From Acidobacteriota bacterium (GTDB lineage Bacteria > Acidobacteriota > Terriglobia > Bryobacterales > Bryobacteraceae): a stretch of DNA of 10,251 bases. The position numbers were made by a program, and so were the translations under genes. Positions within the stretch are counted from its first letter, which is position 1; every line of letters begins with the position of its first letter. The notes beneath the pieces were generated by a model. The model worked only from the letters and a program-made list of their open reading frames with translations, ran no database searches and had not been told where the DNA came from. Positions 2,586-10,251 of this stretch are shown here, in pieces. The stretch is taken from the NCBI GenBank assembly GCA_016871095.1, contig VFZS01000136.1, positions 1 to 10,251 of the forward strand, read 5' to 3'.

Positions 2586-2614
2586 ACCGGGGCCTCGTCC
2601 CCGCTGCTTACCGG

Positions 2615-2636
2615 GTCCGCGGACCGCTCCGCGGTC
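2615..2636 (+). terminator. GC-rich hairpin downstream of the floT stop. It is a candidate intrinsic terminator with no T-tract.
   Basis: The sequence ccgcgga-ccgc-tccgcgg (7-bp perfect stem, 4-nt loop) lies at 2617-2634, 30 nt after the floT stop codon. There is no U-run after it, so it is weak by the E. coli model, though T-tracts are often absent in high-GC genomes. Confidence 0.2.
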
Positions 2637-2646
2637 GGCGTGGGCC

Positions 2647-2775
2647 TCACCCCGCCTTCAGCATCCCCACCACGGCGTTCACCAGGATGACCGCCATGCC
2701 CAGGGGGATCAGCCGCTTCCAGCCCACCTTCATGAGCTGGTCGTAGCGCAGGCGCGGCCAAGCGGCGCGGAAGCA
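2647..2775 (-). repeat. nuoH 3'-end copy A. It is the most complete copy (~125 bp) and has its own TGA stop.
   Basis: Copy A (2650-2770) aligns with the nuoH end (5089-5205) with only a few mismatches, most of them synonymous or conservative: ...cttcagcatccccaccacggcgttcaccaggatgaccgccatgcccagggggatcagccgcttccagcccaccttcatgagctggtcgtagcgcaggcgcggcca.... On the minus strand it encodes ...AAWPRLRYDQLMKVGWKRLIPLGMAVILVNAVVGMLKAG*, compared with the authentic ...ATWPRFRYDQLMNVGWKRLIPLGMAVILVNAVVGMLKG*. Confidence 0.8.
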
Positions 2776-2809
2776 GATCCCTCGGGAACGTTGGCGGGAT
2801 GCGGTTCGG

Positions 2810-3127
2810 CTACTGCTGTGGAAGACGCCGCACCACCCCATCCACCACCGTGATCAGCGCGTTCAGGCGCTCGTCGGTGTGTTGTTGCGTCTCGGCCAGC
2901 GTCAGCAGGGCAGCTCTCGTCTCCTGCTGGAACTGATCGAAGTGCTGGGCCAAACCTAGCTGATGCTCGGCCAGGCGCACCACCAAAGAACGCAACTCGG
3001 CGTGATCCTGCCGCAAGGCCGCCTGCTCCTTCTGCGTGGCCGCCTGCTGCTCTCTCATCTCCTGGAGGCCCGCCCAGAACTTGGCCTGCTGTTCCAGGAT
3101 GAACTCCATGGTGCGCTCGACATCCAT
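2810..3127 (-). CDS. Hypothetical 105-aa Q/E-rich helical (coiled-coil-like) protein. It is cargo of cassette 1.
   Basis: The ORF translates to MDVERTMEFILEQQAKFWAGLQEMREQQAATQKEQAALRQDHAELRSLVVRLAEHQLGLAQHFDQFQQETRAALLTLAETQQHTDERLNALITVVDGVVRRLPQQ. It lies cleanly between repeat copies A and B, in the same orientation as nuoH. An extended -10-like TGGTAGACT on the minus strand (3137-3145) sits 9 nt upstream of the ATG, so the mRNA may be leaderless. There is no SD. I do not recognise a family for this protein. Confidence 0.5.
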   Translation of the reverse strand: MDVERTMEFILEQQAKFWAGLQEMREQQAATQKEQAALRQDHAELRSLVVRLAEHQLGLAQHFDQFQQETRAALLTLAETQQHTDERLNALITVVDGVVRRLPQQ

Positions 3128-3136
3128 CGTGGTTCC

Positions 3137-3145
3137 AGTCTACCA
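3137..3145 (-). promoter_or_regulatory. Candidate extended -10 promoter element (TGgTAGACT) for the 105-aa gene
   Basis: The reverse complement of 3137-3145 is TGGTAGACT, which fits the TGnTAnnnT pattern. It is positioned so that transcription would start at about the ATG (3127). Confidence 0.25.
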
Positions 3146-3168
3146 CGCGGCGCACGCCGGCTGAGGCC

Positions 3169-3258
3169 TTACCACCCCTTCAGCATCCCCACCACGGCGT
3201 TCACCAGGATGACCGCCATGCCCAGGGGGATCAGCCGCTTCCAGCCCACGTTCGCCAC
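3169..3258 (-). repeat. nuoH 3'-end copy B. It is ~80 bp long, has a TAA stop, and diverges abruptly after the NVGWK codons.
   Basis: 3174-3250 (accccttcagcatccccaccacggcgttcaccaggatgaccgccatgcccagggggatcagccgcttccagcccacgttc) is identical to copy A over ~75 nt, apart from one position (acg versus acc). It then diverges abruptly. It encodes ...NVGWKRLIPLGMAVILVNAVVGMLKGW*. Confidence 0.8.
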
Positions 3259-3456
3259 CTGGAACGAGCCGCTGACCGCGCACGTGACCATCGGCGCGGC
3301 AATCAGGAGGACAAGAAGGATTGAATCGTTCTCGGCGCCATCCCCTCGGGGCTTCCCTGGGGGCAGGCCGGCCCCTGCTGAGGCCGCTCCAAACGGTGAT
3401 TCCACCAGGGTGCGGATCCTGGCTGGGCCCGAACCCCTGCCGTGCGGCTCCCAATC

Positions 3457-3465
3457 TGGTAGTCT
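3457..3465 (+). promoter_or_regulatory. Candidate extended -10 promoter element (TGgTAGTCT) for the coiled-coil gene
   Basis: TGGTAGTCT lies 23 nt upstream of ATG 3489. An SD-like AGGTGA (3478-3483) lies 5 nt before the ATG. The sequence is the same nonamer as on the minus strand at 3137-3145, differing at one position. Confidence 0.3.
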
Positions 3466-3488
3466 ATGCCGTTAGGCAGGTGATACGT

Positions 3489-4517
3489 ATGGCTGCGAAA
3501 ACCGTGAAGGCCCCCGCCCGCTCCAGGCGGTCTAAGACCGATGTTGCTGAGGAGTTCTCCGGCATCCGAAAGGAGGTCGAAGGCGCCCGGCTGGTTGCGG
3601 ACGCCAAGGCCGCGGAAGCAGCCGCCCTCCGCGAGACTGAAATCCGCCAGGCGGTCGAAGGACTCTCGGTCGAAACCGTAGTCCAGCGCATCTCCGGTCT
3701 CGGCCTTGAGATCTCGAGAGCCTTGTCGGAAGTCTCCTCCCGGCTGGCCGAGGAAGTGGAGCGTCTGGCCGCCGTGCGTGAGGCCGTCGCCATCGAGCGC
3801 AAAGAACTCGAGCGGCTGCATAAGATCGATGTCGCCGCCACCGCGCTCGATCAGATGGTGCAGGATTTCGTTCGCGAGAAGGAGCGGCTGGAGGCCGAGA
3901 TCGCGGCCGGGCGCACCGCGTGGGAGGAGGAAACCCGCGCTGCGGAGCGTGAGCGCCGCGAGCAGGAAGAAAGCCTGAAGAAACAGCGCCAGCGCGAAAT
4001 CGACGAGTACGAGTACAAGAAGACCCTCGAGCGCAAGAAGGCCCAGGACAAGTACGAAGAAGACCTGCGGCTTCTGGAAAGGAAGAATAAGGAGAAGCAG
4101 GAAGCTCTCGAGAAGGACTGGCAGCAGCGCGCGGCGGCTCTCCACGAAGGGGAACAAGAGCTGCTCGCTTTGCGCAAGGAGGTGGCGGAATTCCCGGCGC
4201 GTCTGCGGGCCGAGGTCGATCAGGCGGTGGCGCGGGCCCTACGGGAGACCGAAGCAAAGTCCCAGCAAGAGATTGTGCTTCTCAAGAGAGACGCCGAGTC
4301 GGAAAAGCGGCTGGCCGAATTGCGGGTTAATACGTTCGAGGAGTTGGTCGCCCGCCAGGCCACGCAGATTGCGGCACTCCAGAAACAGCTCGATGAGGCC
4401 AAGCAGCAGGTCCAGGACATCGCCCTGAAGGCCATCGAGGGCGCCTCCGGCGCCAAGGCGCTCGCCCACATCAACCAAATCGCCATGGAGCAGGCCAAGA
4501 GCCGCCCGCAAACTTAA
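3489..4517 (+). CDS. Hypothetical 342-aa coiled-coil protein, rich in K, E and R. It is cargo of cassette 2.
   Basis: The protein begins MAAKTVKAPARSRRSKTDVAEEFSGIRKEVEGARLVADAKAAEAAALRETEIRQAVEGL.... It continues through EEETRAAERERREQEESLKKQRQREIDEYEYKKTLERKKAQDKYEEDLRLLERKNKEKQEALEKDWQQR and ends ...QLDEAKQQVQDIALKAIEGASGAKALAHINQIAMEQAKSRPQT. There is heptad-like helical character throughout and no TM segment. The start is taken at ATG 3489 because it has an SD. The track's 3321 start would add 56 Pro/Gly/Arg-rich residues typical of off-frame GC-rich translation. GC is locally lower (about 52-60% around 3960-4140) because of AAG/GAG codons. Confidence 0.6.
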   Translation: MAAKTVKAPARSRRSKTDVAEEFSGIRKEVEGARLVADAKAAEAAALRETEIRQAVEGLSVETVVQRISGLGLEISRALSEVSSRLAEEVERLAAVREAVAIERKELERLHKIDVAATALDQMVQDFVREKERLEAEIAAGRTAWEEETRAAERERREQEESLKKQRQREIDEYEYKKTLERKKAQDKYEEDLRLLERKNKEKQEALEKDWQQRAAALHEGEQELLALRKEVAEFPARLRAEVDQAVARALRETEAKSQQEIVLLKRDAESEKRLAELRVNTFEELVARQATQIAALQKQLDEAKQQVQDIALKAIEGASGAKALAHINQIAMEQAKSRPQT

Positions 4518-4590
4518 GCGGGGCGGAGAACTGCACGGTGGTCAGGCCGACCCGAGCCGCCTGCCGTTCGCATCGGCGCGCACATGTGCA

Positions 4591-4692
4591 TGGCAGCCCC
4601 GTTCACCAGGATCACCGCCGTGCCCAGGGGGATCAGCCGCTTCCAGCCCGCGTTCATGAGCTGGCCGTAGCGCAGGCGCGGCCAGGTGGGCC
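4591..4692 (-). repeat. nuoH 3'-end copy C. It is ~100 bp long, more diverged, and lacks the stop-proximal ~25 bp.
   Basis: The copy reads cgttcaccaggatcaccgccgtgcccagggggatcagccgcttccagcccgcgttcatgagctggccgtagcgcaggcgcggccaggt. It shares the gatcagccgc and gcgcaggcgcgg variants with copy A rather than with the gene-attached end. It encodes ...WPRLRYGQLMNAGWKRLIPLGTAVILVNGAAM and then loses homology. It has no stop-proximal MLKG segment. Confidence 0.7.
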
Positions 4693-4699
4693 ACTGGCA

Positions 4700-4705
4700 T
4701 ATACT
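4700..4705 (+). promoter_or_regulatory. Candidate -10 hexamer (TATACT) upstream of the UPF0175-like gene
   Basis: TATACT lies ~55 nt upstream of ATG 4761. A strong SD, GGGAGGG (4747-4753), sits 7 nt before the ATG. No clear -35 was found. A sigma54-like TGGCAT..TGCA overlap was considered and rejected. Confidence 0.25.
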
Positions 4706-4760
4706 GGGTGCAGAACCACCCCCAGGCACGCGGGTTGCCTGAGGCAGGGAGGGCCCAGCG

Positions 4761-5021
4761 ATGAGCACGTTGACTGTTGAACTCGACCCGGAACTCGTGA
4801 CGCTGCTCGAGGGCCTTGAACGTCCGATCCAGGAGACCGCGCGCGAGCTGATCGTGCTGGAACTCTACCGAAGGGGAGCGGTCTCCAGCGGAAGGGCGGC
4901 CGAGTTGCTGGGGCTGTCACGGGAGTCCTTCCTCGACCTGGCCTCGCGGCTCGGCGTCCCGTATTTCCGCTTGACTGAGGCCGAACTGGAGCAGGAAGGC
5001 CGTCACAGCAAGTCCCTCTGA
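4761..5021 (+). CDS. UPF0175-family antitoxin-like small protein (86 aa). It is cargo of cassette 3.
   Basis: The translation is MSTLTVELDPELVTLLEGLERPIQETARELIVLELYRRGAVSSGRAAELLGLSRESFLDLASRLGVPYFRLTEAELEQEGRHSKSL. The segment ELYRRG-x-S-x-GRAAELLGLS-x-xxFLDLLxxxGVP matches the UPF0175 signature as I recall it (canonically ...LYRRGKISLGKAAELAGMSRWEFLELL..GIP). There is a strong SD. The gene is convergent with nuoH, and its stop lies 63 bp from the nuoH stop codon. Confidence 0.7.
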   Translation: MSTLTVELDPELVTLLEGLERPIQETARELIVLELYRRGAVSSGRAAELLGLSRESFLDLASRLGVPYFRLTEAELEQEGRHSKSL

Positions 5022-5084
5022 CAGGTTGCTCTGAGCGGCCGGCGAGAGAGGGGCTGGTGCCCGCGATCGAAGCGGCGCTGCCCA

Positions 5085-6263
5085 CTACCCCTTCAGCATC
5101 CCCACCACGGCGTTCACCAGGATGACCGCCATGCCCAGGGGGATGAGGCGCTTCCAGCCCACGTTCATGAGCTGGTCGTAGCGGAACCGCGGCCAGGTCG
5201 CCCGGAACCAGATGATGGCGTAAACCACCACCGCCACCTTGAGGAAGAACCAGAACAGGCCGATGACCGCGGCGTTCACCACCGGCACCACGAAGACCAG
5301 TCCCAGGAACACCAGGGCCAGCCCCACCAGGCGCAGGAACATGGCGTTGAGCCGGCTCTTGAGCCGGCCCGCCAGCGGGAAGCACATCACCCCGGAGCCT
5401 GCCATCAGCGCCAGCGGCAGGCCGTAGTTGAGCGGATACTCCAGCCACCCCACGCTGGGGAAGGGCCGCAGCCACCCGCCCCAGAACAGCGTCACCGCCA
5501 CCGCGGAGACCACGAAGATGTTGACGTACTCGGCCAAAAAGTACAGCGCCCAGCGGAACCCGCTGTACTCGGTCATGAAGCCGGCCACCAGCTCGGACTC
5601 GGCCTCGGGCAGATCGAAGGGCGCGCGGTTGGTCTCGGCGATGGCCGCGATCAGGTAGATCACGAAAGGCAGCAGCATCAGCCCGTAGTTCTCGAAGGCA
5701 AACCACACGCCGCGCTCCTGCTGCGCCCGCACGATGCCGGCCAGGCTGAGCGTGCCCGCCATCATCACGCCGTTGAGCAGGCCAAACGCCAGGGCCACTT
5801 CGTAGCTGATCAACTGCGCGCCGCCGCGCAGCGTCCCCAACAGCGCATAGTGGCTGTTGGCCGACCAGCCCCCCAGCACGATGCCCAGCACGCCCACCGC
5901 CGACATCGAGGAAATCACCAGCAGCCCCACGTTCACGTCGGCCACCTGGACGTGCTGGCTGAAGGGCAGCACCGAGAGCGCGGTCAGCGCGGTGAAAGTC
6001 GAGATGCAGGGCGCCATCCAGTACAGGAAGCGGTCGGAGTCCGCCGGCATCAGGTCTTCCTTGAGCAGCAGCTTGAGGGCATCGGCCAGCGGTTGCAAAA
6101 TCCCGTGCGGGCCTACCCGCATGGGCCCCAGCCGCGCCTGGAAGTCGCCCAGCAGCTTGCGCTCGGCCAGCACCATGTAGCCGGCGATCAAGGGAAAGGC
6201 CACCACCATCACGCCCGACAGGACCAGCGCGATCACCAGCGGATGCAGGAGGAAGTTCAGCAT
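5085..6263 (-). CDS. nuoH: NADH-quinone oxidoreductase subunit H (complex I ND1 homologue)
   Basis: The 392-aa product carries hallmark NuoH motifs. These are the N-terminal ...AERKLLGDFQARLGPMRVGP, EYSGFRWALYFLAEY, and the C-terminal RATWPRFRYDQLMNVGWKRLIPLGMAVIL. Its start lies 6 bp after the nuoN stop. Confidence 0.95.
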   Translation of the reverse strand: MLNFLLHPLVIALVLSGVMVVAFPLIAGYMVLAERKLLGDFQARLGPMRVGPHGILQPLADALKLLLKEDLMPADSDRFLYWMAPCISTFTALTALSVLPFSQHVQVADVNVGLLVISSMSAVGVLGIVLGGWSANSHYALLGTLRGGAQLISYEVALAFGLLNGVMMAGTLSLAGIVRAQQERGVWFAFENYGLMLLPFVIYLIAAIAETNRAPFDLPEAESELVAGFMTEYSGFRWALYFLAEYVNIFVVSAVAVTLFWGGWLRPFPSVGWLEYPLNYGLPLALMAGSGVMCFPLAGRLKSRLNAMFLRLVGLALVFLGLVFVVPVVNAAVIGLFWFFLKVAVVVYAIIWFRATWPRFRYDQLMNVGWKRLIPLGMAVILVNAVVGMLKG

Positions 6264-6269
6264 AGCAAG

Positions 6270-7739
6270 TTACCGCGCCAGGGAAGTCTGCGCCAGCCGC
6301 AGAAACGGTTCCGGATAGACTCCGATAACCAATGTAAGAATGCCGGTTATGCCGAGCGCCAACCGCAACCCATAACTGGAAGCCACCGGCACGCGGTCGG
6401 CCTCCTCGCCGGCGAACATGCTACGCACCACCCGGAAGTAGTAGTACACCGCCACGGCCGCGTACAGCGTCCCGATCACCGCCAGCACGTAATGCCGGGT
6501 CTCGATCAGCGCCAGGAAAATGTAATACTTGCCCAGGAAGCCCGCGGTGGGCGGGATGCCGGCCAGCGACACCAGGAAGATCAGCATCAACACCGCGTGC
6601 ATGGGGCTCTTCTTCATCAGCCCGCCCAGATCATCGAGGTCCTCCCCCAACAACTCCTCGCGCCGCAGCGCCACCACCACCAGGAACGCCCCGAGCGTCA
6701 TGAAGGTGTACACCAGCACGTACACCGCGACGCCCTTCAGGCCGGTGGGATTGCCCGCCACCACCCCCAGCAGAATGTAGCCCGCGTGCGAGATCGAGCT
6801 ATAGGCCAGCAGCCGCTTGATGTTGGTCTGAGTGATGGCCGCCAGATTGCCCAGCGTCAGCGTGGCCACCGCGATGACGGCCAGCAGCGGCTCCCACACC
6901 TCCCGCAGCGTCCACAGCGGCCCGGTGAAGAGCCTCATCAGCAGCGCGAAGGAGGCCGCCTTGGAGCCCACCGCCAGGTAGGCGGTCACCGGCGTGGGCG
7001 CGCCCTCGTAGGCGTCCGGCGCCCACATGTGGAAAGGCACGGCCGAGACCTTGAAGAGCAGCCCCACCATGGTGGTGGCCAGCGCCAGGAACACCAGCGG
7101 ATCCCAAAGGTCGCGCGCCTGTATGGCCAGCGCCACGTCCCGCAGCCGCGTCGAGCCGGCCAGCCCGTACATCACCGAGAAACCGTAGGCCAGAAACCCG
7201 CTCGAAAACGCGCCCAGCAGCAGGTACTTCATGGCCGCTTCGTTCGAGCGGCGGTCGGCTCGCAGGAAGCCCACCAGCACGTAGAAGCACAGGGCCATCA
7301 GTTCCAGGCCCACGAACACCGTCACCAGGTCCGTGCCCGTGGCCAGGAAGAACATGCCGCAGTTGGCCAGCAGGATCAGCCCGTAGTACTCGCCGTGGTG
7401 CTCGCCTTCGATCTCCAGGAAGCGGTAGGACACCACCGCCACGATGAAGGACGCCGCCAGAAACACCCAGTTGAAGAACAGCGAGAAGCCGTCGATGGTG
7501 AGAGCGCCCTGGAAGGCGCTGATCTGGGTCAGGCCCTGCTGCGCCAGGTAGCTCTGCTGCCGCCACAGCCCCAGTCCGGTGAAAGCCTGCCCGATCACCA
7601 CGAACACCAGCAGCCAGCGGCGGTGACGGAGGCCGGGCGCCAGCAGGAAGTCGAACAGCAGCACCGCGCAGCCGAACAGCGCCAGCATGATGGCGGGCAC
7701 CAGCGCGAAGTGGTCCAGGGAGGTGTAGTACTGGCTCAT
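6270..7739 (-). CDS. nuoN: NADH-quinone oxidoreductase subunit N (ND2 homologue)
   Basis: The 489-aa polytopic membrane protein begins MSQYYTSLDHFALVPAIMLALFG.... It has typical antiporter-like NuoN helices. Its ATG overlaps the nuoM stop (ATGA, 7736-7739), indicating translational coupling. Confidence 0.9.
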   Translation of the reverse strand: MSQYYTSLDHFALVPAIMLALFGCAVLLFDFLLAPGLRHRRWLLVFVVIGQAFTGLGLWRQQSYLAQQGLTQISAFQGALTIDGFSLFFNWVFLAASFIVAVVSYRFLEIEGEHHGEYYGLILLANCGMFFLATGTDLVTVFVGLELMALCFYVLVGFLRADRRSNEAAMKYLLLGAFSSGFLAYGFSVMYGLAGSTRLRDVALAIQARDLWDPLVFLALATTMVGLLFKVSAVPFHMWAPDAYEGAPTPVTAYLAVGSKAASFALLMRLFTGPLWTLREVWEPLLAVIAVATLTLGNLAAITQTNIKRLLAYSSISHAGYILLGVVAGNPTGLKGVAVYVLVYTFMTLGAFLVVVALRREELLGEDLDDLGGLMKKSPMHAVLMLIFLVSLAGIPPTAGFLGKYYIFLALIETRHYVLAVIGTLYAAVAVYYYFRVVRSMFAGEEADRVPVASSYGLRLALGITGILTLVIGVYPEPFLRLAQTSLAR

Positions 7740-9301
7740 CGAGCGGCCTCCATGGCGGGCGCGCGGTTAGAGGCGGCGGGCGGGTGGAGGGCCGCCGCCC
7801 TGCCAGCGAAGTAACCCGGGCGGACGCGCTCGACGATCTGCGCCACCGGCTTCTCCAGCACGTCAAAGTACGGCTTGGGATACACGCCGATCCAGACGGC
7901 CCACGCGATAAGCGGCAGGAAAGTCGCCAGCTCGCGCAGGTTCAGATCGGGCAGCCGCCGGTTCTTCTCGTTGGTGACCTCGCCCAGCATCGTGCGCTGA
8001 TAGAGCCACAGCAAGTAGGCCGCGCCCAGGATCACCCCGGTGACGGCCAGCGCCGCCCAGGTCCGGCTGGCCTCGAAGGCCCCTTGCAGGATGGTGAACT
8101 CCCCGATGAACCCGTTCAGCAGCGGCAACCCGGCGGAGCTAAGCATGGCAATGGCGAAGACCACCGCGTACACCGGCATCACGTGGCCCAGTCCGCCGTA
8201 GTCCTTGATCTCCCGGGTGTGCCGCCGCTCGTAGATGATGCCCACGATCAAGAACAGCATGCCGGTCGAGATCCCGTGGTTGATCTGCTGGATCACGCTC
8301 CCGGCCAGGCCGTTGGGGTTGAGCGCGAAGATGCCCAGCGTGCAGAAACCCAGGTGACTTACCGACGAGTAAGCGACCAGTTTCTTCCAGTCCTGCTGCA
8401 TCAGGCTGACCAAGGCCCCGTAGATAATGCCGATGATCGACAGCGCGGCCAGCACCTGCACGATGACCACGTTGGCGGAAGCCTGAGGCAACAGCGGCAG
8501 CGAGAAGCGGATGAACCCGTAGGTCCCCATCTTCAGCAGGACGCTGGCCAGCACCACCGACCCGGCCGTGGGCGCCTCCACGTGCGCGTCCGGCAGCCAG
8601 GTGTGGAAGGGGAACATGGGCACCTTGATGGCGAAGCCGATGAAGAAGGCCCAGAAGACCCACTGCTCCAGGCCGGGCGAGAGGTTGAGCTTCATCAGCT
8701 CCGAGATCTCGAAAGTGTAGAAACCCCGCTGCTGAAAGTGCTGCAAGTACAGCGTCAGGATGCCCAGCAGCATCAGCGTGCCGCCCGCCAGCGTGTACAG
8801 AAAGAACTTGATCGCCGCGTACAGCTTCCGCGGCCCGCCCCACACCCCGATGATAAAGTACATCGGCACCAGGACCACTTCCCAGAACACGAAGAACATG
8901 AAGAAGTCCAGGGCCACGAACACCCCGATCATCCCGGTCTGCTGGAGCAGGAACATGGCGTAGTATTCCTTGACCCGCTCCTGGACCGCGCTCCAGCTCG
9001 ACAGGATGGCCAGCATGCCCACCAGCGTGGTGAGCATCACCAGCAGCAGGCTGATGCCGTCGATGCCGATGTAGTATTTCACTCCCAGGGCGGGAATCCA
9101 GTCCGCGCGCTCGACAAACTGGAAGCCGTCGGCGTGCTTGTCGAAACGGAATACCAGCGGCAGCGAAACCAGGAACCCGGCCAGCGCGGCCAGGTTGGCC
9201 CACCACCGGATCAGGTTCTTCTTCGAGGCGGGGAGCAGCAACAGCACCGCCATGCCGACCAGCGGCGTGAACAGAACCCAACTCAGCCAGTGAGAGCCCA
9301 T
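7736..9301 (-). CDS. nuoM: NADH-quinone oxidoreductase subunit M (ND4 homologue)
   Basis: The 521-aa product begins MGSHWLSWVLFTPLVGMAVLLLLPA.... It contains ...YYIGIDGISLLLVMLTTLVGMLAILSSW..., VLVPMYFIIGVWGG, and other NuoM/ND4 antiporter-like motifs. It starts 4 bp after the nuoL stop. Confidence 0.9.
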   Translation of the reverse strand: MGSHWLSWVLFTPLVGMAVLLLLPASKKNLIRWWANLAALAGFLVSLPLVFRFDKHADGFQFVERADWIPALGVKYYIGIDGISLLLVMLTTLVGMLAILSSWSAVQERVKEYYAMFLLQQTGMIGVFVALDFFMFFVFWEVVLVPMYFIIGVWGGPRKLYAAIKFFLYTLAGGTLMLLGILTLYLQHFQQRGFYTFEISELMKLNLSPGLEQWVFWAFFIGFAIKVPMFPFHTWLPDAHVEAPTAGSVVLASVLLKMGTYGFIRFSLPLLPQASANVVIVQVLAALSIIGIIYGALVSLMQQDWKKLVAYSSVSHLGFCTLGIFALNPNGLAGSVIQQINHGISTGMLFLIVGIIYERRHTREIKDYGGLGHVMPVYAVVFAIAMLSSAGLPLLNGFIGEFTILQGAFEASRTWAALAVTGVILGAAYLLWLYQRTMLGEVTNEKNRRLPDLNLRELATFLPLIAWAVWIGVYPKPYFDVLEKPVAQIVERVRPGYFAGRAAALHPPAASNRAPAMEAAR

Positions 9302-9305
9302 GGAA

Positions 9306-10251
9306 TCAACGCATCAGATAGTAACCGAAAATCAGCGCCACGCCCAGCACAAATACCAGCGCATAGACCTGCACATATCCGGTCTGTAACACCCGCGCCG
9401 GGAAGGAAGACATCTTAACGAGGAAGGAGGACAGGCGCACCGCCCCGTCCACGATCCAGGTGTCCCACCAGATGCTCACCCGCGAGGCGAAGCGCGTCAG
9501 CCAGCCCGTGCCGTTCACCCCGCCGTCCACCACGGCGTTGTCGAAGGCGGCCAGGGCCGAGCCGCCGCCCTTGGACAGGCCGTTCACGAAAAGCAGGTCG
9601 TACAGCTCGTCCACGTACCACTTGTTGTAGGCCCAGGTGTAGACCCGCCCGGCGGCCTGCTTCAGCGCTTCAGCCTGCTCCGGGCGGCGCTGGTAGAGCC
9701 GCCAGGCCAGGGCGATGCCCGCACCCGCCACAACCACCGAAAGCAGCATGAGCAGCCACTCCAGCGAGGCCGAGTGCGCGTGCTCTTCCGCGCCGTGCGC
9801 GGCGTGCCCGCCCACCACCGGCTCGAGCCAGTGTTCGAAGGTGCGGAACGCCTCCGGGAACGCGCTCCACAGCTTGGGAACTCCTATCCAGCCGGCCACG
9901 ATGCTGCCCATCGCCAGCGCCACCAGCGGCAGTGTCATCACGCGCGGCGACTCGTGCATGTGCGCGGCTGCCTTCGGCTCCACCCGGCTCTGCCCGTAGA
10001 AGGTCAGCGCCATCAGCCGCCACATGTAAAAGGCCGTCATTCCCGCCGTGGCCACTCCCACCAGCCACAGCCACACCGAGCCACCGCTGAAGGCCTGCCA
10101 CAGTATCTCGTCCTTCGAGAAGAATCCCGCCAGCCCGGGCACGCCGGCGATGGCCAGCGTCCCCGCCAGCATGGTCCAGTGGGTGGCGGGGATCTTGTCC
10201 TTCAAGCCTCCCATGCGCCGCATGTCCTGCTCGCCGGAGAGGGCGTGAATC
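9306..10251 (-). CDS. nuoL: NADH-quinone oxidoreductase subunit L (ND5 homologue). This is the C-terminal portion; the gene continues beyond the right edge of the window.
   Basis: The ORF reads through the window end. The reverse complement of the final bases gives IHALSGEQDMRRMGGLKDKIPATHWTMLAGTLAIAGVPGLAGFFSKDEIL..., the conserved NuoL 'SGEQDMRKMGGL' region. The track's M at 10223 is internal. The C-terminus is ...VLGVALIFGYYLMR*. Confidence 0.9.
   Translation of the reverse strand, partial: IHALSGEQDMRRMGGLKDKIPATHWTMLAGTLAIAGVPGLAGFFSKDEILWQAFSGGSVWLWLVGVATAGMTAFYMWRLMALTFYGQSRVEPKAAAHMHESPRVMTLPLVALAMGSIVAGWIGVPKLWSAFPEAFRTFEHWLEPVVGGHAAHGAEEHAHSASLEWLLMLLSVVVAGAGIALAWRLYQRRPEQAEALKQAAGRVYTWAYNKWYVDELYDLLFVNGLSKGGGSALAAFDNAVVDGGVNGTGWLTRFASRVSIWWDTWIVDGAVRLSSFLVKMSSFPARVLQTGYVQVYALVFVLGVALIFGYYLMR

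What the first reader, a model, noticed from the sequence alone, without database searches (positions are those of the whole stretch)
4761..5021. Orphan UPF0175-type antitoxin-like gene with no toxin partner, wedged against the nuoH stop
UPF0175 proteins normally occur as the upstream member of a two-gene module, with a PIN-like/DUF3368 toxin directly downstream. Here the 86-aa UPF0175-like ORF has an excellent SD and an intact signature, but no partner follows it. After 63 bp the sequence runs into the nuoH stop codon, and the other side is repeat copy C. Either the toxin was lost or separated by the integration events that built the array, or this is a solo antitoxin or anti-addiction gene carried as cassette cargo to neutralise toxins encoded elsewhere.
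Basis: partly seen in the sequence, partly recalled or inferred. Interest (0 to 1): 0.5.

Follow-up and report, generated by a model that had tools for sequence, protein, structure and literature searches.

The report
Antitoxin gene whose toxin was deleted
This is an intact antitoxin gene left behind after its partner toxin gene was almost completely deleted from a small toxin-antitoxin cassette downstream of the respiratory gene nuoH, which is a common and ordinary way for such modules to decay.

Summary
Window 4761-5021 (+) is a full-length 86-aa UPF0175 (PF03683) protein (58.9 bits, cutoff 27.9). It has a GGGAGGG ribosome-binding site, sits 63 nt from the nuoH stop, and has a nuoH 3' fragment (copy C) upstream. 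The window contains no DUF3368 toxin.

The "toxin was lost" reading is supported. Orthologous cassettes in other metagenomes (antitoxin 73-95% identical) carry a 151-aa DUF3368/PIN toxin starting directly after the antitoxin stop and ending about 10 nt from a nuoH fragment. The window's 63-nt gap keeps a relic of toxin codons ~112-124 (16/16 nt identical to one toxin allele; 2 of 2000 shuffles score as well). The toxin was therefore deleted inside the cassette, not displaced by an integration.

The cassette is a mosaic. Its promoter and first 200 nt of coding sequence are 98.5% identical to a toxin-bearing cassette, but the relic and flanks are much more diverged.

Toxin decay beside an intact UPF0175 gene is common: 11 of 25 non-redundant relatives. 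Whether this solo antitoxin is selected as an anti-addiction gene or is a neutral leftover cannot be decided from sequence.

The finding is ordinary. The more interesting feature is the surrounding array of toxin-antitoxin cassettes separated by nuoH 3' fragments, with no integrase gene called on any array contig.

The parts
4572..4702 (-). nuoH 3'-end fragment, repeat copy C. It is the left boundary of the UPF0175 cassette. Clear nuoH homology ends at 4687, and its last ~8 codons and stop have been replaced.
   Evidence: family D1, 75% identical to the reference copy; tblastn, nuoH C-terminal residues 84-115; junction ...GCGCGGCCAGGT|GGGCCACTGGCATATACTGGGT, shared with L011 and, with one substitution (GGGCCCCTGG), L012.
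4688..4760 (+). Cassette-specific promoter and 5' UTR region. TATACT (-10-like) is at 4700-4705 and the Shine-Dalgarno GGGAGGG at 4747-4753.
   Evidence: CTGGCATATACTGGGT present in five of the six aligned cassettes, one substitution in L001; L003 keeps only TATACTGGG; 73/73 identical to the toxin-bearing cassette L011. The consensus sigma-70 scan found no promoter, so promoter function is inferred only.
4761..5021 (+). Intact 86-aa UPF0175 (COG2886) predicted HTH antitoxin gene.
   Evidence: AlphaFold2 model with five helices, mean pLDDT 85.9; PADLOC PDC-S70, E 6.7e-9.
5022..5084 (+). 63-nt remnant of the deleted DUF3368 toxin gene plus the short intergenic tail. A recognisable relic of toxin codons ~112-124 lies at 5035-5069, with an exact 16-mer at 5054-5069.
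   Evidence: alignment to L144 toxin nt 336-369 scores 18, against 10.4 +/- 1.5 for shuffles, reached by 2 of 2000; the same toxin position is hit in L001, L011 and L012, and the spacer is homologous to the L007 orphan spacer, with 0 of 1000 shuffles reaching the score..
5085..6263 (-). Intact nuoH gene (392 aa). Its 3' ~120 nt is the repeated unit and the right boundary of the cassette.
2648..2778 (-). nuoH 3' fragment copy A, the left end of the array, next to the flotillin gene.
   Evidence: It is absent from the sibling contig L005.
3170..3300 (-). nuoH 3' fragment copy B. It lies between the 105-aa cassette (2810-3127, -) and the coiled-coil protein cassette (3321-4517, +).

Best explanation
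The ORF is the surviving antitoxin half of a UPF0175-DUF3368 (COG2886-COG2405, PIN-like) type II toxin-antitoxin cassette.

The cassette is one unit in an array of toxin-antitoxin cassettes that lies downstream of nuoH in one Acidobacteriota lineage. Each unit is bounded by a copy of the nuoH 3' end.

In this lineage about 400 nt of the 456-nt toxin gene were deleted from inside the cassette. What remains is 63 nt: possibly the first few nt of the toxin gene (clear only in the related L007 spacer), ~35 nt from codons ~112-124, and the short tail before nuoH.

Toxin loss is the tolerated direction of decay for these modules, because losing the antitoxin first would be lethal. The antitoxin gene therefore persists with its own promoter-like region and ribosome-binding site.

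The present gene is a mosaic. Its promoter and first ~200 nt were recently exchanged with a toxin-bearing cassette (one direction or the other). The toxin relic belongs to an older toxin-less lineage.

Most likely the protein is still made and acts as a small HTH repressor of its own promoter. It has no toxin to control in cis. Any remaining benefit would be neutralising cognate DUF3368 toxins from incoming sister cassettes.

Shown: family membership, former presence of the toxin, the relic, the mosaic structure, and how often this decay occurs. Inferred: expression, DNA binding, and any neutralisation in trans.
For: Family and integrity of the gene:
- Pfam UPF0175 hit at 58.9 bits against a cutoff of 27.9.
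- Full length and all invariant residues present.

Orthologous cassettes carry the toxin. Each has a 151-aa DUF3368 gene starting directly after the antitoxin stop (TGAGTG) and ending ~9-15 nt from a nuoH fragment:
- L011, antitoxin 95% aa identical.
- L001, 88%.
- L007, L008 and L010, 87%.
- L012-L015, 83%.
- L003, 73%.
- The toxins hit PF11848 and PADLOC PDC-S70 at E 7.5e-40.

The toxin relic:
- Window 5035-5069 aligns to toxin nt 336-369 of L144, including an exact 16-mer; 2 of 2000 shuffles reach that score.
- The same toxin position is hit in L001, L011 and L012.

Other decay states of the toxin in relatives:
- L144: a 1-nt frameshift.
- L020: an N-terminal deletion plus a 3' truncation.
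- L007a: a 62-nt spacer homologous to the window's, with 0 of 1000 shuffles reaching the score.

Mosaic structure, window compared with L011:
- Promoter and UTR 73/73 identical; coding nt 1-200 196/200 identical.
- Left nuoH fragment 77/88 (p 6e-5).
- Right nuoH 110/120 (p 0.0016).
- Relic against the L011 toxin 24/35 (p 8e-9).

Census and selection:
- Of 25 non-redundant UPF0175 loci with enough downstream DNA, 14 have a full toxin, 7 a partial or frameshifted toxin and 4 none.
- The family is under purifying selection, with dN/dS 0.13-0.17.
Against: - There is no direct evidence of expression. The consensus sigma-70 scan finds no promoter.
- Selection on the orphan cannot be measured. Window and L011 differ by only 4 synonymous and 4 non-synonymous changes (dN/dS ~0.35, no statistical power).
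- The exact deletion endpoints are uncertain, because the relic is short and diverged. The first ~13 nt of the spacer match the toxin start only weakly in the window; they are clear only in L007a (GTGCCTGTCG).
- The mosaic inference rests on a single close comparator, L011.
- The HTH fold assignment is weak. The best Foldseek hits are HTH domains, but all have E >= 0.3.
Confidence: 0.8

Rival explanations
1. Selected solo antitoxin (anti-addiction or immunity gene). The toxin-less cassette is kept because its antitoxin neutralises DUF3368 toxins of homologous cassettes that enter or leave the nuoH array or sit elsewhere in the genome. That would let the host lose or resist addictive cassettes.
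For: - The ORF, ribosome-binding site and promoter-like region are intact. The promoter and first 200 nt are 98.5% identical to those of a toxin-bearing cassette, so the protein should recognise that toxin.
- The toxin-less form appears old, because its spacer is shared with the diverged L007a and partly with L020. Even so, the antitoxin is intact in the window and in L020.
- Arrays can hold an orphan and a complete pair together, as in L007.
- The orphan is found in at least four independent assemblies plus the MAG contig.
- Trans-acting solo antitoxins have been proposed in the literature (Makarova 2009, PMC2701414).
Against: - No cognate toxin is known in this genome or population. The only toxin more than 81% identical to L011's in 5.8 billion proteins is L011's own.
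- The other old orphan, L007a, has lost its ATG, its ribosome-binding site and its promoter region, which looks like decay rather than maintenance.
- dN/dS for the orphan is uninformative.
- Damaged or missing toxins next to UPF0175 genes are so common (11 of 25) that neutral decay is a sufficient explanation.
Confidence: 0.2
2. Toxin separated, not lost. An integration or recombination event at the nuoH repeats moved the toxin to another position in the array or genome, and the antitoxin still controls it in trans.
For: - The locus is a recombining array of repeats.
- Cassette order differs between genomes.
Against: - Both cassette boundaries are in their normal places, and the break is inside the toxin gene.
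- A relic from the middle of the toxin remains in place. Separation at a repeat would not produce that.
- There is no DUF3368 similarity anywhere else in the 10.2-kb contig.
- In L001, whose array is syntenic with the window's on the flotillin side, the toxin sits directly after the antitoxin at the corresponding position.
Confidence: 0.03
3. Artefact. The ORF is a chance open frame in GC-rich DNA, a fragment of a larger disrupted gene, or the toxin is missing through mis-assembly across the repeats.
For: - The window is GC-rich and full of spurious long ORFs.
- Repeats can collapse in metagenome assemblies.
Against: - The Pfam hit is significant and well above the cutoff.
- 421 homologues were found at E <= 1e-3, and those listed are almost all 86 aa.
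- The family shows purifying selection.
- The toxin gene is not repeated sequence, so an assembly collapse would not remove it.
- An identical structure is present in four independent assemblies.
Confidence: 0.01

Closest known systems
UPF0175 (PF03683, COG2886) - DUF3368 (PF11848, COG2405 PIN-like) predicted type II toxin-antitoxin pairs; listed in PADLOC as candidate defence system PDC-S70
   Same: - The ORF is a bona fide UPF0175 protein of typical length with the conserved residues.
- Its closest relatives sit directly upstream of a DUF3368 gene, as described for the family. Matelska 2017 (PMC5499597) reports UPF0175 exclusively in COG2405 contexts. Makarova 2009 (PMC2701414) describes a predicted HTH antitoxin associated with PIN genes.
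   Different: - The toxin gene is absent here apart from a 63-nt relic, so the locus is not a two-gene module.
- As far as my searches show, the pair has not been characterised experimentally and has no solved structure. "Antitoxin" is therefore itself a prediction.
Orphan (solo) antitoxins and anti-addiction modules. Examples: chromosomal ccd of Erwinia chrysanthemi protecting against the F-plasmid ccd (from my own knowledge: Saavedra De Bast et al. 2008), and the solo antitoxins counted by Makarova 2009
   Same: An intact antitoxin gene with its own expression signals and no adjacent toxin, highly similar to the antitoxin of a mobile toxin-bearing module.
   Different: - Neutralisation in trans and a fitness benefit are not shown here, and no target toxin has been identified.
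- The classic anti-addiction example is a complete chromosomal pair, not a toxin-deleted one.
Toxin-antitoxin cassettes in chromosomal integrons, such as Vibrio superintegrons
   Same: Small cassettes of one or two genes, many of them toxin-antitoxin modules, stacked in an array with a repeated boundary element. Each carries its own promoter, and cassette order varies between genomes.
   Different: - The boundaries are copies of the 3' end of a housekeeping gene (nuoH), 80 to over 400 nt long, not attC sites.
- No IntI or other integrase gene is called on any array contig.
- The array abuts the intact target gene rather than an attI site.
Tandem accretion of integrative elements at the 3' end of a target gene, such as tRNA or tmRNA islands, cis-mobilisable elements (CIMEs) and tycheposon-type islands (from my own knowledge)
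   Same: Each unit is flanked by a direct repeat made of the target gene's 3' end, the intact gene sits at one end of the array, and remnants and decayed units accumulate.
   Different: - The units are only 0.5-1.4 kb in the window and none of the called genes on the array contigs is an integrase.
- The target is a protein-coding respiratory gene.
- Repeat lengths differ by cassette type (about 80-130, 162, 238, 255 and at least 400 nt).

Membership tests
UPF0175 / COG2886 antitoxin family (PF03683) | Profile HMM match above the curated gathering score | tested here: met
   58.9 bits against 27.9, E 4.1e-16, profile positions 11-72 of 75.
UPF0175 / COG2886 antitoxin family (PF03683) | Small stand-alone protein (~86 aa) aligning end to end with family members and keeping the conserved residues | tested here: met
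   421 homologues at E <= 1e-3, and nearly all of those listed are 86 aa. In a 99-sequence alignment the ORF carries all invariant columns: L16, E29, V32, L33, E34, L35, S42, E79.
UPF0175 / COG2886 antitoxin family (PF03683) | Helix-turn-helix DNA-binding fold (predicted by Makarova 2009) | tested here: inconclusive
   The AlphaFold2 model has five helices with mean pLDDT 85.9. The best Foldseek PDB hits are HTH DNA-binding domains (DeoR, Fis, NtrC), but all have E >= 0.3. No relative has a solved structure.
UPF0175-DUF3368 type II toxin-antitoxin module (PADLOC PDC-S70) | A DUF3368/PIN-like toxin gene directly downstream on the same strand | tested here: not met
   Only 63 nt separate the antitoxin stop from the nuoH stop. 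tblastn with toxins finds nothing significant in the window.
UPF0175-DUF3368 type II toxin-antitoxin module (PADLOC PDC-S70) | Descent from such a module: orthologous cassettes carry the toxin, and a remnant is present | tested here: met
   Toxin-bearing orthologues. Relic at 5035-5069.
UPF0175-DUF3368 type II toxin-antitoxin module (PADLOC PDC-S70) | The antitoxin binds and neutralises the toxin and represses its own promoter | not testable with these tools
   This needs co-expression and DNA-binding experiments. No complex prediction was possible with the available tools.
Anti-addiction / functional solo antitoxin | Intact ORF with its own expression signals | tested here: met
   Intact 86-aa ORF, GGGAGGG 7 nt upstream of the ATG, and a TATACT-containing motif present in five of the six aligned cassettes, with one substitution in L001. 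Promoter activity itself is not shown.
Anti-addiction / functional solo antitoxin | Purifying selection acting after the toxin was lost | tested here: inconclusive
   Window against L011: 4 synonymous and 4 non-synonymous differences. Variation within the orphan lineage is 0-3 nt. The older orphan L007a has lost its start codon and ribosome-binding site.
Anti-addiction / functional solo antitoxin | A cognate toxin present elsewhere in the same genome or population | not testable with these tools
   The window is the whole contig, and the other contigs of the MAG could not be listed. In the protein database the nearest toxin to L011's is 81% identical, and none could be tied to the window's samples.
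Integron gene cassette | attC recombination site at the cassette boundary and an IntI integrase with attI next to the array | tested here: not met
   The boundaries are nuoH 3'-end copies. None of the genes called on the array contigs from the contig look-ups (L001-L015, L144) has an integrase Pfam hit on record. The window's main ORFs are NfeD, flotillin, the cassette genes and nuoH/N/M/L, of which nuoN/M/L are named from their translations only. No formal attC model was run.
Tandem site-specific accretion at a gene 3' end (CIME or tycheposon-like) | Units flanked by direct repeats of the target gene's 3' end, with the intact gene at one end | tested here: met
   Four copies in the window. 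The same architecture occurs in L001, L003, L007, L011, L012 and L020.
Tandem site-specific accretion at a gene 3' end (CIME or tycheposon-like) | A site-specific recombinase encoded in or near the array, and a constant crossover core | tested here: not met
   No integrase gene is called on any array contig, all of which are 10 kb or shorter. Junction positions differ by cassette type: 82, 102-129, 162, 238, 255 and at least 400 nt from the stop. A recombinase encoded elsewhere is not excluded.

The most novel reading that the evidence does not exclude
The nuoH-proximal array may be an undescribed, integron-like platform without its own integrase. It would capture and shuffle small cassettes, mostly toxin-antitoxin modules, using copies of the nuoH 3' end as the recombination substrate. 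Within it, toxin-deleted cassettes such as this one would be kept, and kept current by gene conversion with intact cassettes. Their antitoxins would immunise the host against the addictive sister cassettes and so allow cassette turnover.
Probability: 0.15. Interest if true: 0.65.

Novelty: new member of a known kind. Interest (0 to 1): 0.3.

Why it matters
On its own, this is one more example of the usual decay path of type II toxin-antitoxin modules: the toxin is lost first and the antitoxin persists. It matters mainly for annotation. The gene should be called a UPF0175 family antitoxin remnant, not a functional toxin-antitoxin system or defence system.

The case is unusually well resolved. 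Intact, frameshifted, partly deleted and almost fully deleted versions of the same cassette can be lined up across metagenomes, and there is evidence of recombination between orphan and intact cassettes.

The wider value lies in the context. One Acidobacteriota lineage stacks toxin-antitoxin cassettes (UPF0175-DUF3368, HicAB, BrnTA, MNT-HEPN, HigBA) between copies of the nuoH 3' end, with no integrase gene called on the contigs. If cassette gain there proves to be an active process, it would be a new kind of cassette array. It would also be a natural system for testing the anti-addiction idea.

Tried and rejected
1. **Genome scan anchored on flotillin.** It returned 80 Acidobacteriota loci with 70-86% identical flotillin. 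None has nuoH within 10 kb, so the flotillin-nuoH adjacency is specific to this lineage. No empty site and no integrase context was obtained.

2. **Metagenome scan with the antitoxin.** They were useful for the census but added only one close relative (L019, the same contig as L010).

3. **E84K as a sign of relaxed constraint.** This substitution in the C-terminal SESL motif is seen only in the window lineage among close relatives. I rejected it as evidence because K occurs at that column in 14 of 99 family members.

4. **The second half of the spacer as the toxin's 3' terminus (the MAFFT placement).** The alternative placement at toxin codons ~112-124 is better supported: an exact 16-mer in L144, and the same position hit in four alleles.

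5. **A simple recent deletion from an L011-like cassette.** Rejected because the relic is only 24/35 identical to the L011 toxin, while the adjacent promoter and coding sequence are 98.5% identical.

6. **Promoter and terminator consensus scan of 4450-5150.** Nothing found.

7. **Rfam and tRNA scans of the window.** Nothing found.

8. **RNA fold of the spacer.** Not unusual (z -0.7).

9. **Sequence search of solved structures.** Only marginal matches, E >= 0.01, to a Cas9 segment. These were ignored.

10. **NCBIfam.** No model matches the ORF.

11. **Literature search for nuoH-targeted toxin-antitoxin arrays.** None of the 15 top-ranked papers listed contains the term nuoH, and none describes such an array.

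Full report
**1. Observation**

The ORF is exactly as described. It spans 4761..5021 on the + strand, with an ATG start, 86 codons and a TGA stop.
- GGGAGGG lies at 4747-4753, 7 nt before the ATG.
- The nuoH stop codon reads CTA on the + strand at 5085-5087, so the gap is 63 nt (5022-5084).
- Upstream lies copy C (4572-4702) of a ~131-nt repeat that is the 3' end of nuoH. The window has four copies, at 2648, 3170, 4572 and 5083, the last being part of the intact gene.
- Pfam assigns the protein to UPF0175 (PF03683) with 58.9 bits against a gathering cutoff of 27.9.
- The protein is full length. Nearly all of the 120 best of 421 homologues are 86 aa, and it carries every invariant column of a 99-sequence alignment.
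- An AlphaFold2 model is confident (mean pLDDT 85.9) and consists of five helices.
- Its nearest solved folds are helix-turn-helix DNA-binding domains, but none is significant (E >= 0.3). No relative has a solved structure.
- The window is the entire contig of an Acidobacteria MAG (P0001, 100% identity, longest contig 10,251).

**2. No toxin in the window, but the toxin in the orthologues**

tblastn with DUF3368 toxins finds nothing significant anywhere in the window.

Contigs carrying the closest homologues show the same cassette with a 151-aa DUF3368 (PF11848) gene. The gene starts directly after the antitoxin stop (TGAGTG) and ends ~9-15 nt before the stop of a nuoH fragment:
- L011, antitoxin 95% aa identical
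- L001, 88%
- L007, L008 and L010, 87%
- L012-L015, 83%
- L003, 73%

The toxins hit Pfam DUF3368. Both partners hit the PADLOC candidate defence system PDC-S70: toxin E 7.5e-40, window antitoxin E 6.7e-9.

Published surveys describe UPF0175/COG2886 as a predicted HTH antitoxin. It is found in the context of COG2405/DUF3368 PIN-like genes (Matelska 2017, PMC5499597; Makarova 2009, PMC2701414).

The toxin-less arrangement with the same 63-nt spacer recurs on four independently assembled contigs from JGI samples 3300020603, 3300020083, 3300020084 and 3300020109 (L002, L004-L006). It is therefore real and apparently fixed in that population.

**3. What the 63 nt are**

Window 5035-5069 aligns to toxin nt 336-369 (codons ~112-124, LLAAKRRGLLPAVR).
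- Against the L144 allele the match includes an exact 16-mer (window 5054-5069). It scores 18, against 10.4 +/- 1.5 for dinucleotide shuffles, and 2 of 2000 shuffles reach it.
- The same toxin position is found independently with the L001, L011 and L012 alleles.

A second, diverged orphan UPF0175 copy in L007-L008 (and its spacer, truncated at the contig end, in L009) is followed by a 62-nt spacer homologous to the window's.
- 0 of 1000 shuffles reach the observed score.
- That spacer still begins with the toxin's first ten bases (GTGCCTGTCG) and keeps a TAA where the toxin stop would be.

The most economical reading is two internal deletions, of roughly toxin nt 11-330 and 372-453. They would leave, in order:
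1. the toxin start,
2. a ~35-nt internal piece,
3. the stop region,
4. the short tail before nuoH.

The exact endpoints are uncertain because the relic is short and diverged. Both cassette boundaries are in their normal places. The toxin was therefore deleted from within the cassette, not cut off by an integration at a repeat.

**4. Stages of decay in relatives**

- L144 (antitoxin 88% identical) has a full-length toxin with a 1-nt frameshift and a GERE-to-GERQ change.
- L020 (66%) has a toxin with an N-terminal deletion and a 3' truncation.
- L016-L018 keep only about the first third to half of the toxin: 44 residues matched, 81.
- L141 and L143 have an N-terminally truncated UPF0175 next to a transposase and no toxin.

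In a census of 25 non-redundant UPF0175 loci with enough downstream DNA, 14 have a full-length toxin, 7 a partial or frameshifted one and 4 none. Toxin decay beside an intact antitoxin is thus common in this family. That fits the general expectation that the toxin can be lost safely but the antitoxin cannot. [quoted passage not shown]

**5. Mosaic structure**

Compared with the toxin-bearing L011 cassette, identity varies sharply along the window cassette:

| Segment | Identity to L011 | p versus the core block |
|---|---|---|
| Promoter and 5' UTR | 73/73 | core block |
| Coding nt 1-200 | 196/200 | core block |
| Upstream nuoH fragment | 77/88 | 6e-5 |
| Coding nt 201-261 | 57/61 | 0.04 |
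| nuoH 3' end | 110/120 | 0.0016 |
| Toxin relic against the L011 toxin | 24/35 | 8e-9 |

Synonymous divergence between the two antitoxin genes is only 0.06. The relic therefore cannot be a recent derivative of an L011-like toxin.

So a ~270-nt tract was recently exchanged between an intact cassette and an older toxin-less cassette. It starts at the cassette's left junction and ends in the last third of the antitoxin gene. The direction of exchange is unknown.

L011 sits in a different array context, with a different upstream gene. The same cassette is therefore found in different arrays.

**6. Function**

Family-wide dN/dS is 0.13-0.17, so UPF0175 proteins are constrained in general. For the orphan itself the data have no power:
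- Window against L011: 4 synonymous and 4 non-synonymous differences.
- Within the orphan lineage: 0-3 nt differences.

The E84K change seen only in this lineage is not informative, because K is frequent at that column in the wider family.

The older orphan L007a has lost its ATG, its ribosome-binding site and its promoter region. This argues that orphans decay in the end.

The nearest relative of the L011 toxin in 5.8 billion proteins is only 81% identical. I found no evidence for a co-circulating cognate toxin, although the rest of this genome could not be examined.

I therefore commit to decay of a mobile toxin-antitoxin cassette as the explanation (confidence about 0.8). The antitoxin is probably still expressed and autorepressing. 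I rate a selected anti-addiction or immunity role at about 0.2.

**7. Context: the array**

The window's array runs as follows:
1. flotillin
2. copy A
3. a 105-aa ORF on the - strand
4. copy B
5. a coiled-coil protein
6. copy C
7. the orphan UPF0175
8. nuoH

Related contigs have the same architecture with other cargo, nearly all toxin-antitoxin pairs:
- BrnT with a CopG-like antitoxin
- MNT with HEPN
- HigB with an HTH_3 protein
- HicB with HicA
- UPF0175 with DUF3368, sometimes two copies per array

A given cassette type keeps its own junction with the nuoH fragment. For UPF0175 the junction is ...GCGCGGCCAGGT|GGGCCACTGGCATATACTGGGT, about 114-120 nt from the nuoH stop. Other cassette types have junctions at 82, 102-113, 162, 238, 255 or at least 400 nt.

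None of the genes called on the array contigs is an integrase. All these contigs are 10 kb or shorter, probably because the repeats break assemblies. There is no tRNA gene and no Rfam family in the window.

Eighty Acidobacteriota genomes with a 70-86% identical flotillin lack nuoH nearby. The arrangement is therefore lineage-specific. How cassettes are gained is unexplained.

**8. Verdict**

The interpretation that the toxin was lost is supported, while separation by integration is not. The anti-addiction cargo idea remains an unproven possibility.

The finding itself is an ordinary orphan antitoxin, a new member of a known kind. The unusual element is the nuoH-repeat cassette array around it.

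Noticed in passing
window 2586-5213; also L001, L003, L007-L015, L020, L144: The region between the flotillin gene and nuoH is an array of small cassettes, each bounded by a copy of the nuoH 3' end. In related contigs the cargo is almost entirely toxin-antitoxin pairs: BrnT with a CopG-like antitoxin, MNT with HEPN, HigB with HTH_3, HicB with HicA, and UPF0175 with DUF3368. Each cassette type has its own junction position in nuoH. No integrase gene is called on any array contig. The mechanism of cassette gain is unexplained.
   Followed up: partly
L007 2229-2489, with L008 and L009, compared with L012 451-936 and with L013 and L015: A second example of toxin loss in these arrays. The HicB antitoxin stands alone in L007-L009, whereas the same cassette carries HicB plus the HicA toxin in L012, L013 and L015.
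   Followed up: no
window 2586-2790 compared with L005 2569-2700: Copy A of the nuoH fragment, about 205 nt immediately after the flotillin stop, is absent from sibling contig L005. That contig is otherwise from the same population, so the array is polymorphic within the population.
   Followed up: partly
window 2810-3127 (-) and 3321-4517 (+): The two other cassettes of the window encode a 105-aa protein and a coiled-coil protein. The coiled-coil ORF is 398 aa here and is called as 342-365 aa in relatives. Neither has a Pfam, NCBIfam or PADLOC family above threshold. Both are conserved in L001, L002 and L004-L006. Their function is unknown.
   Followed up: partly
window 5085-10223 (-): On the - strand the respiratory-complex genes read, from their translations, as nuoL (partial), nuoM, nuoN and then nuoH (only nuoH was checked against Pfam). 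nuoH is therefore the last gene, instead of preceding nuoI-J-K-L-M-N as in the usual nuo operon.
   Followed up: no
window 4688-4740 compared with 5205-5250 (alignment A5): The cassette's promoter and UTR region (GGCATATACTGG-GTGCAGAACCACC) still aligns weakly with the nuoH coding sequence just beyond the repeat (ACCAGATGATGGCGTAAACCACC). The TATACT box may have evolved from degenerate nuoH sequence, but in L003 the box sits elsewhere, so this may be coincidence.
   Followed up: no
L007 3-905: The decayed orphan UPF0175 copy in L007 is in frame with an upstream ORF, giving a called 300-aa protein with a C-terminal UPF0175 domain. This is probably an annotation artefact of decay, not a real fusion.
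   Followed up: no
L003 1897-2727: An AbiEii-family gene, with neighbours that have no family assignment, lies upstream of the NfeD-flotillin pair in a related MAG. Further toxin-antitoxin or defence genes therefore flank the locus.
   Followed up: no
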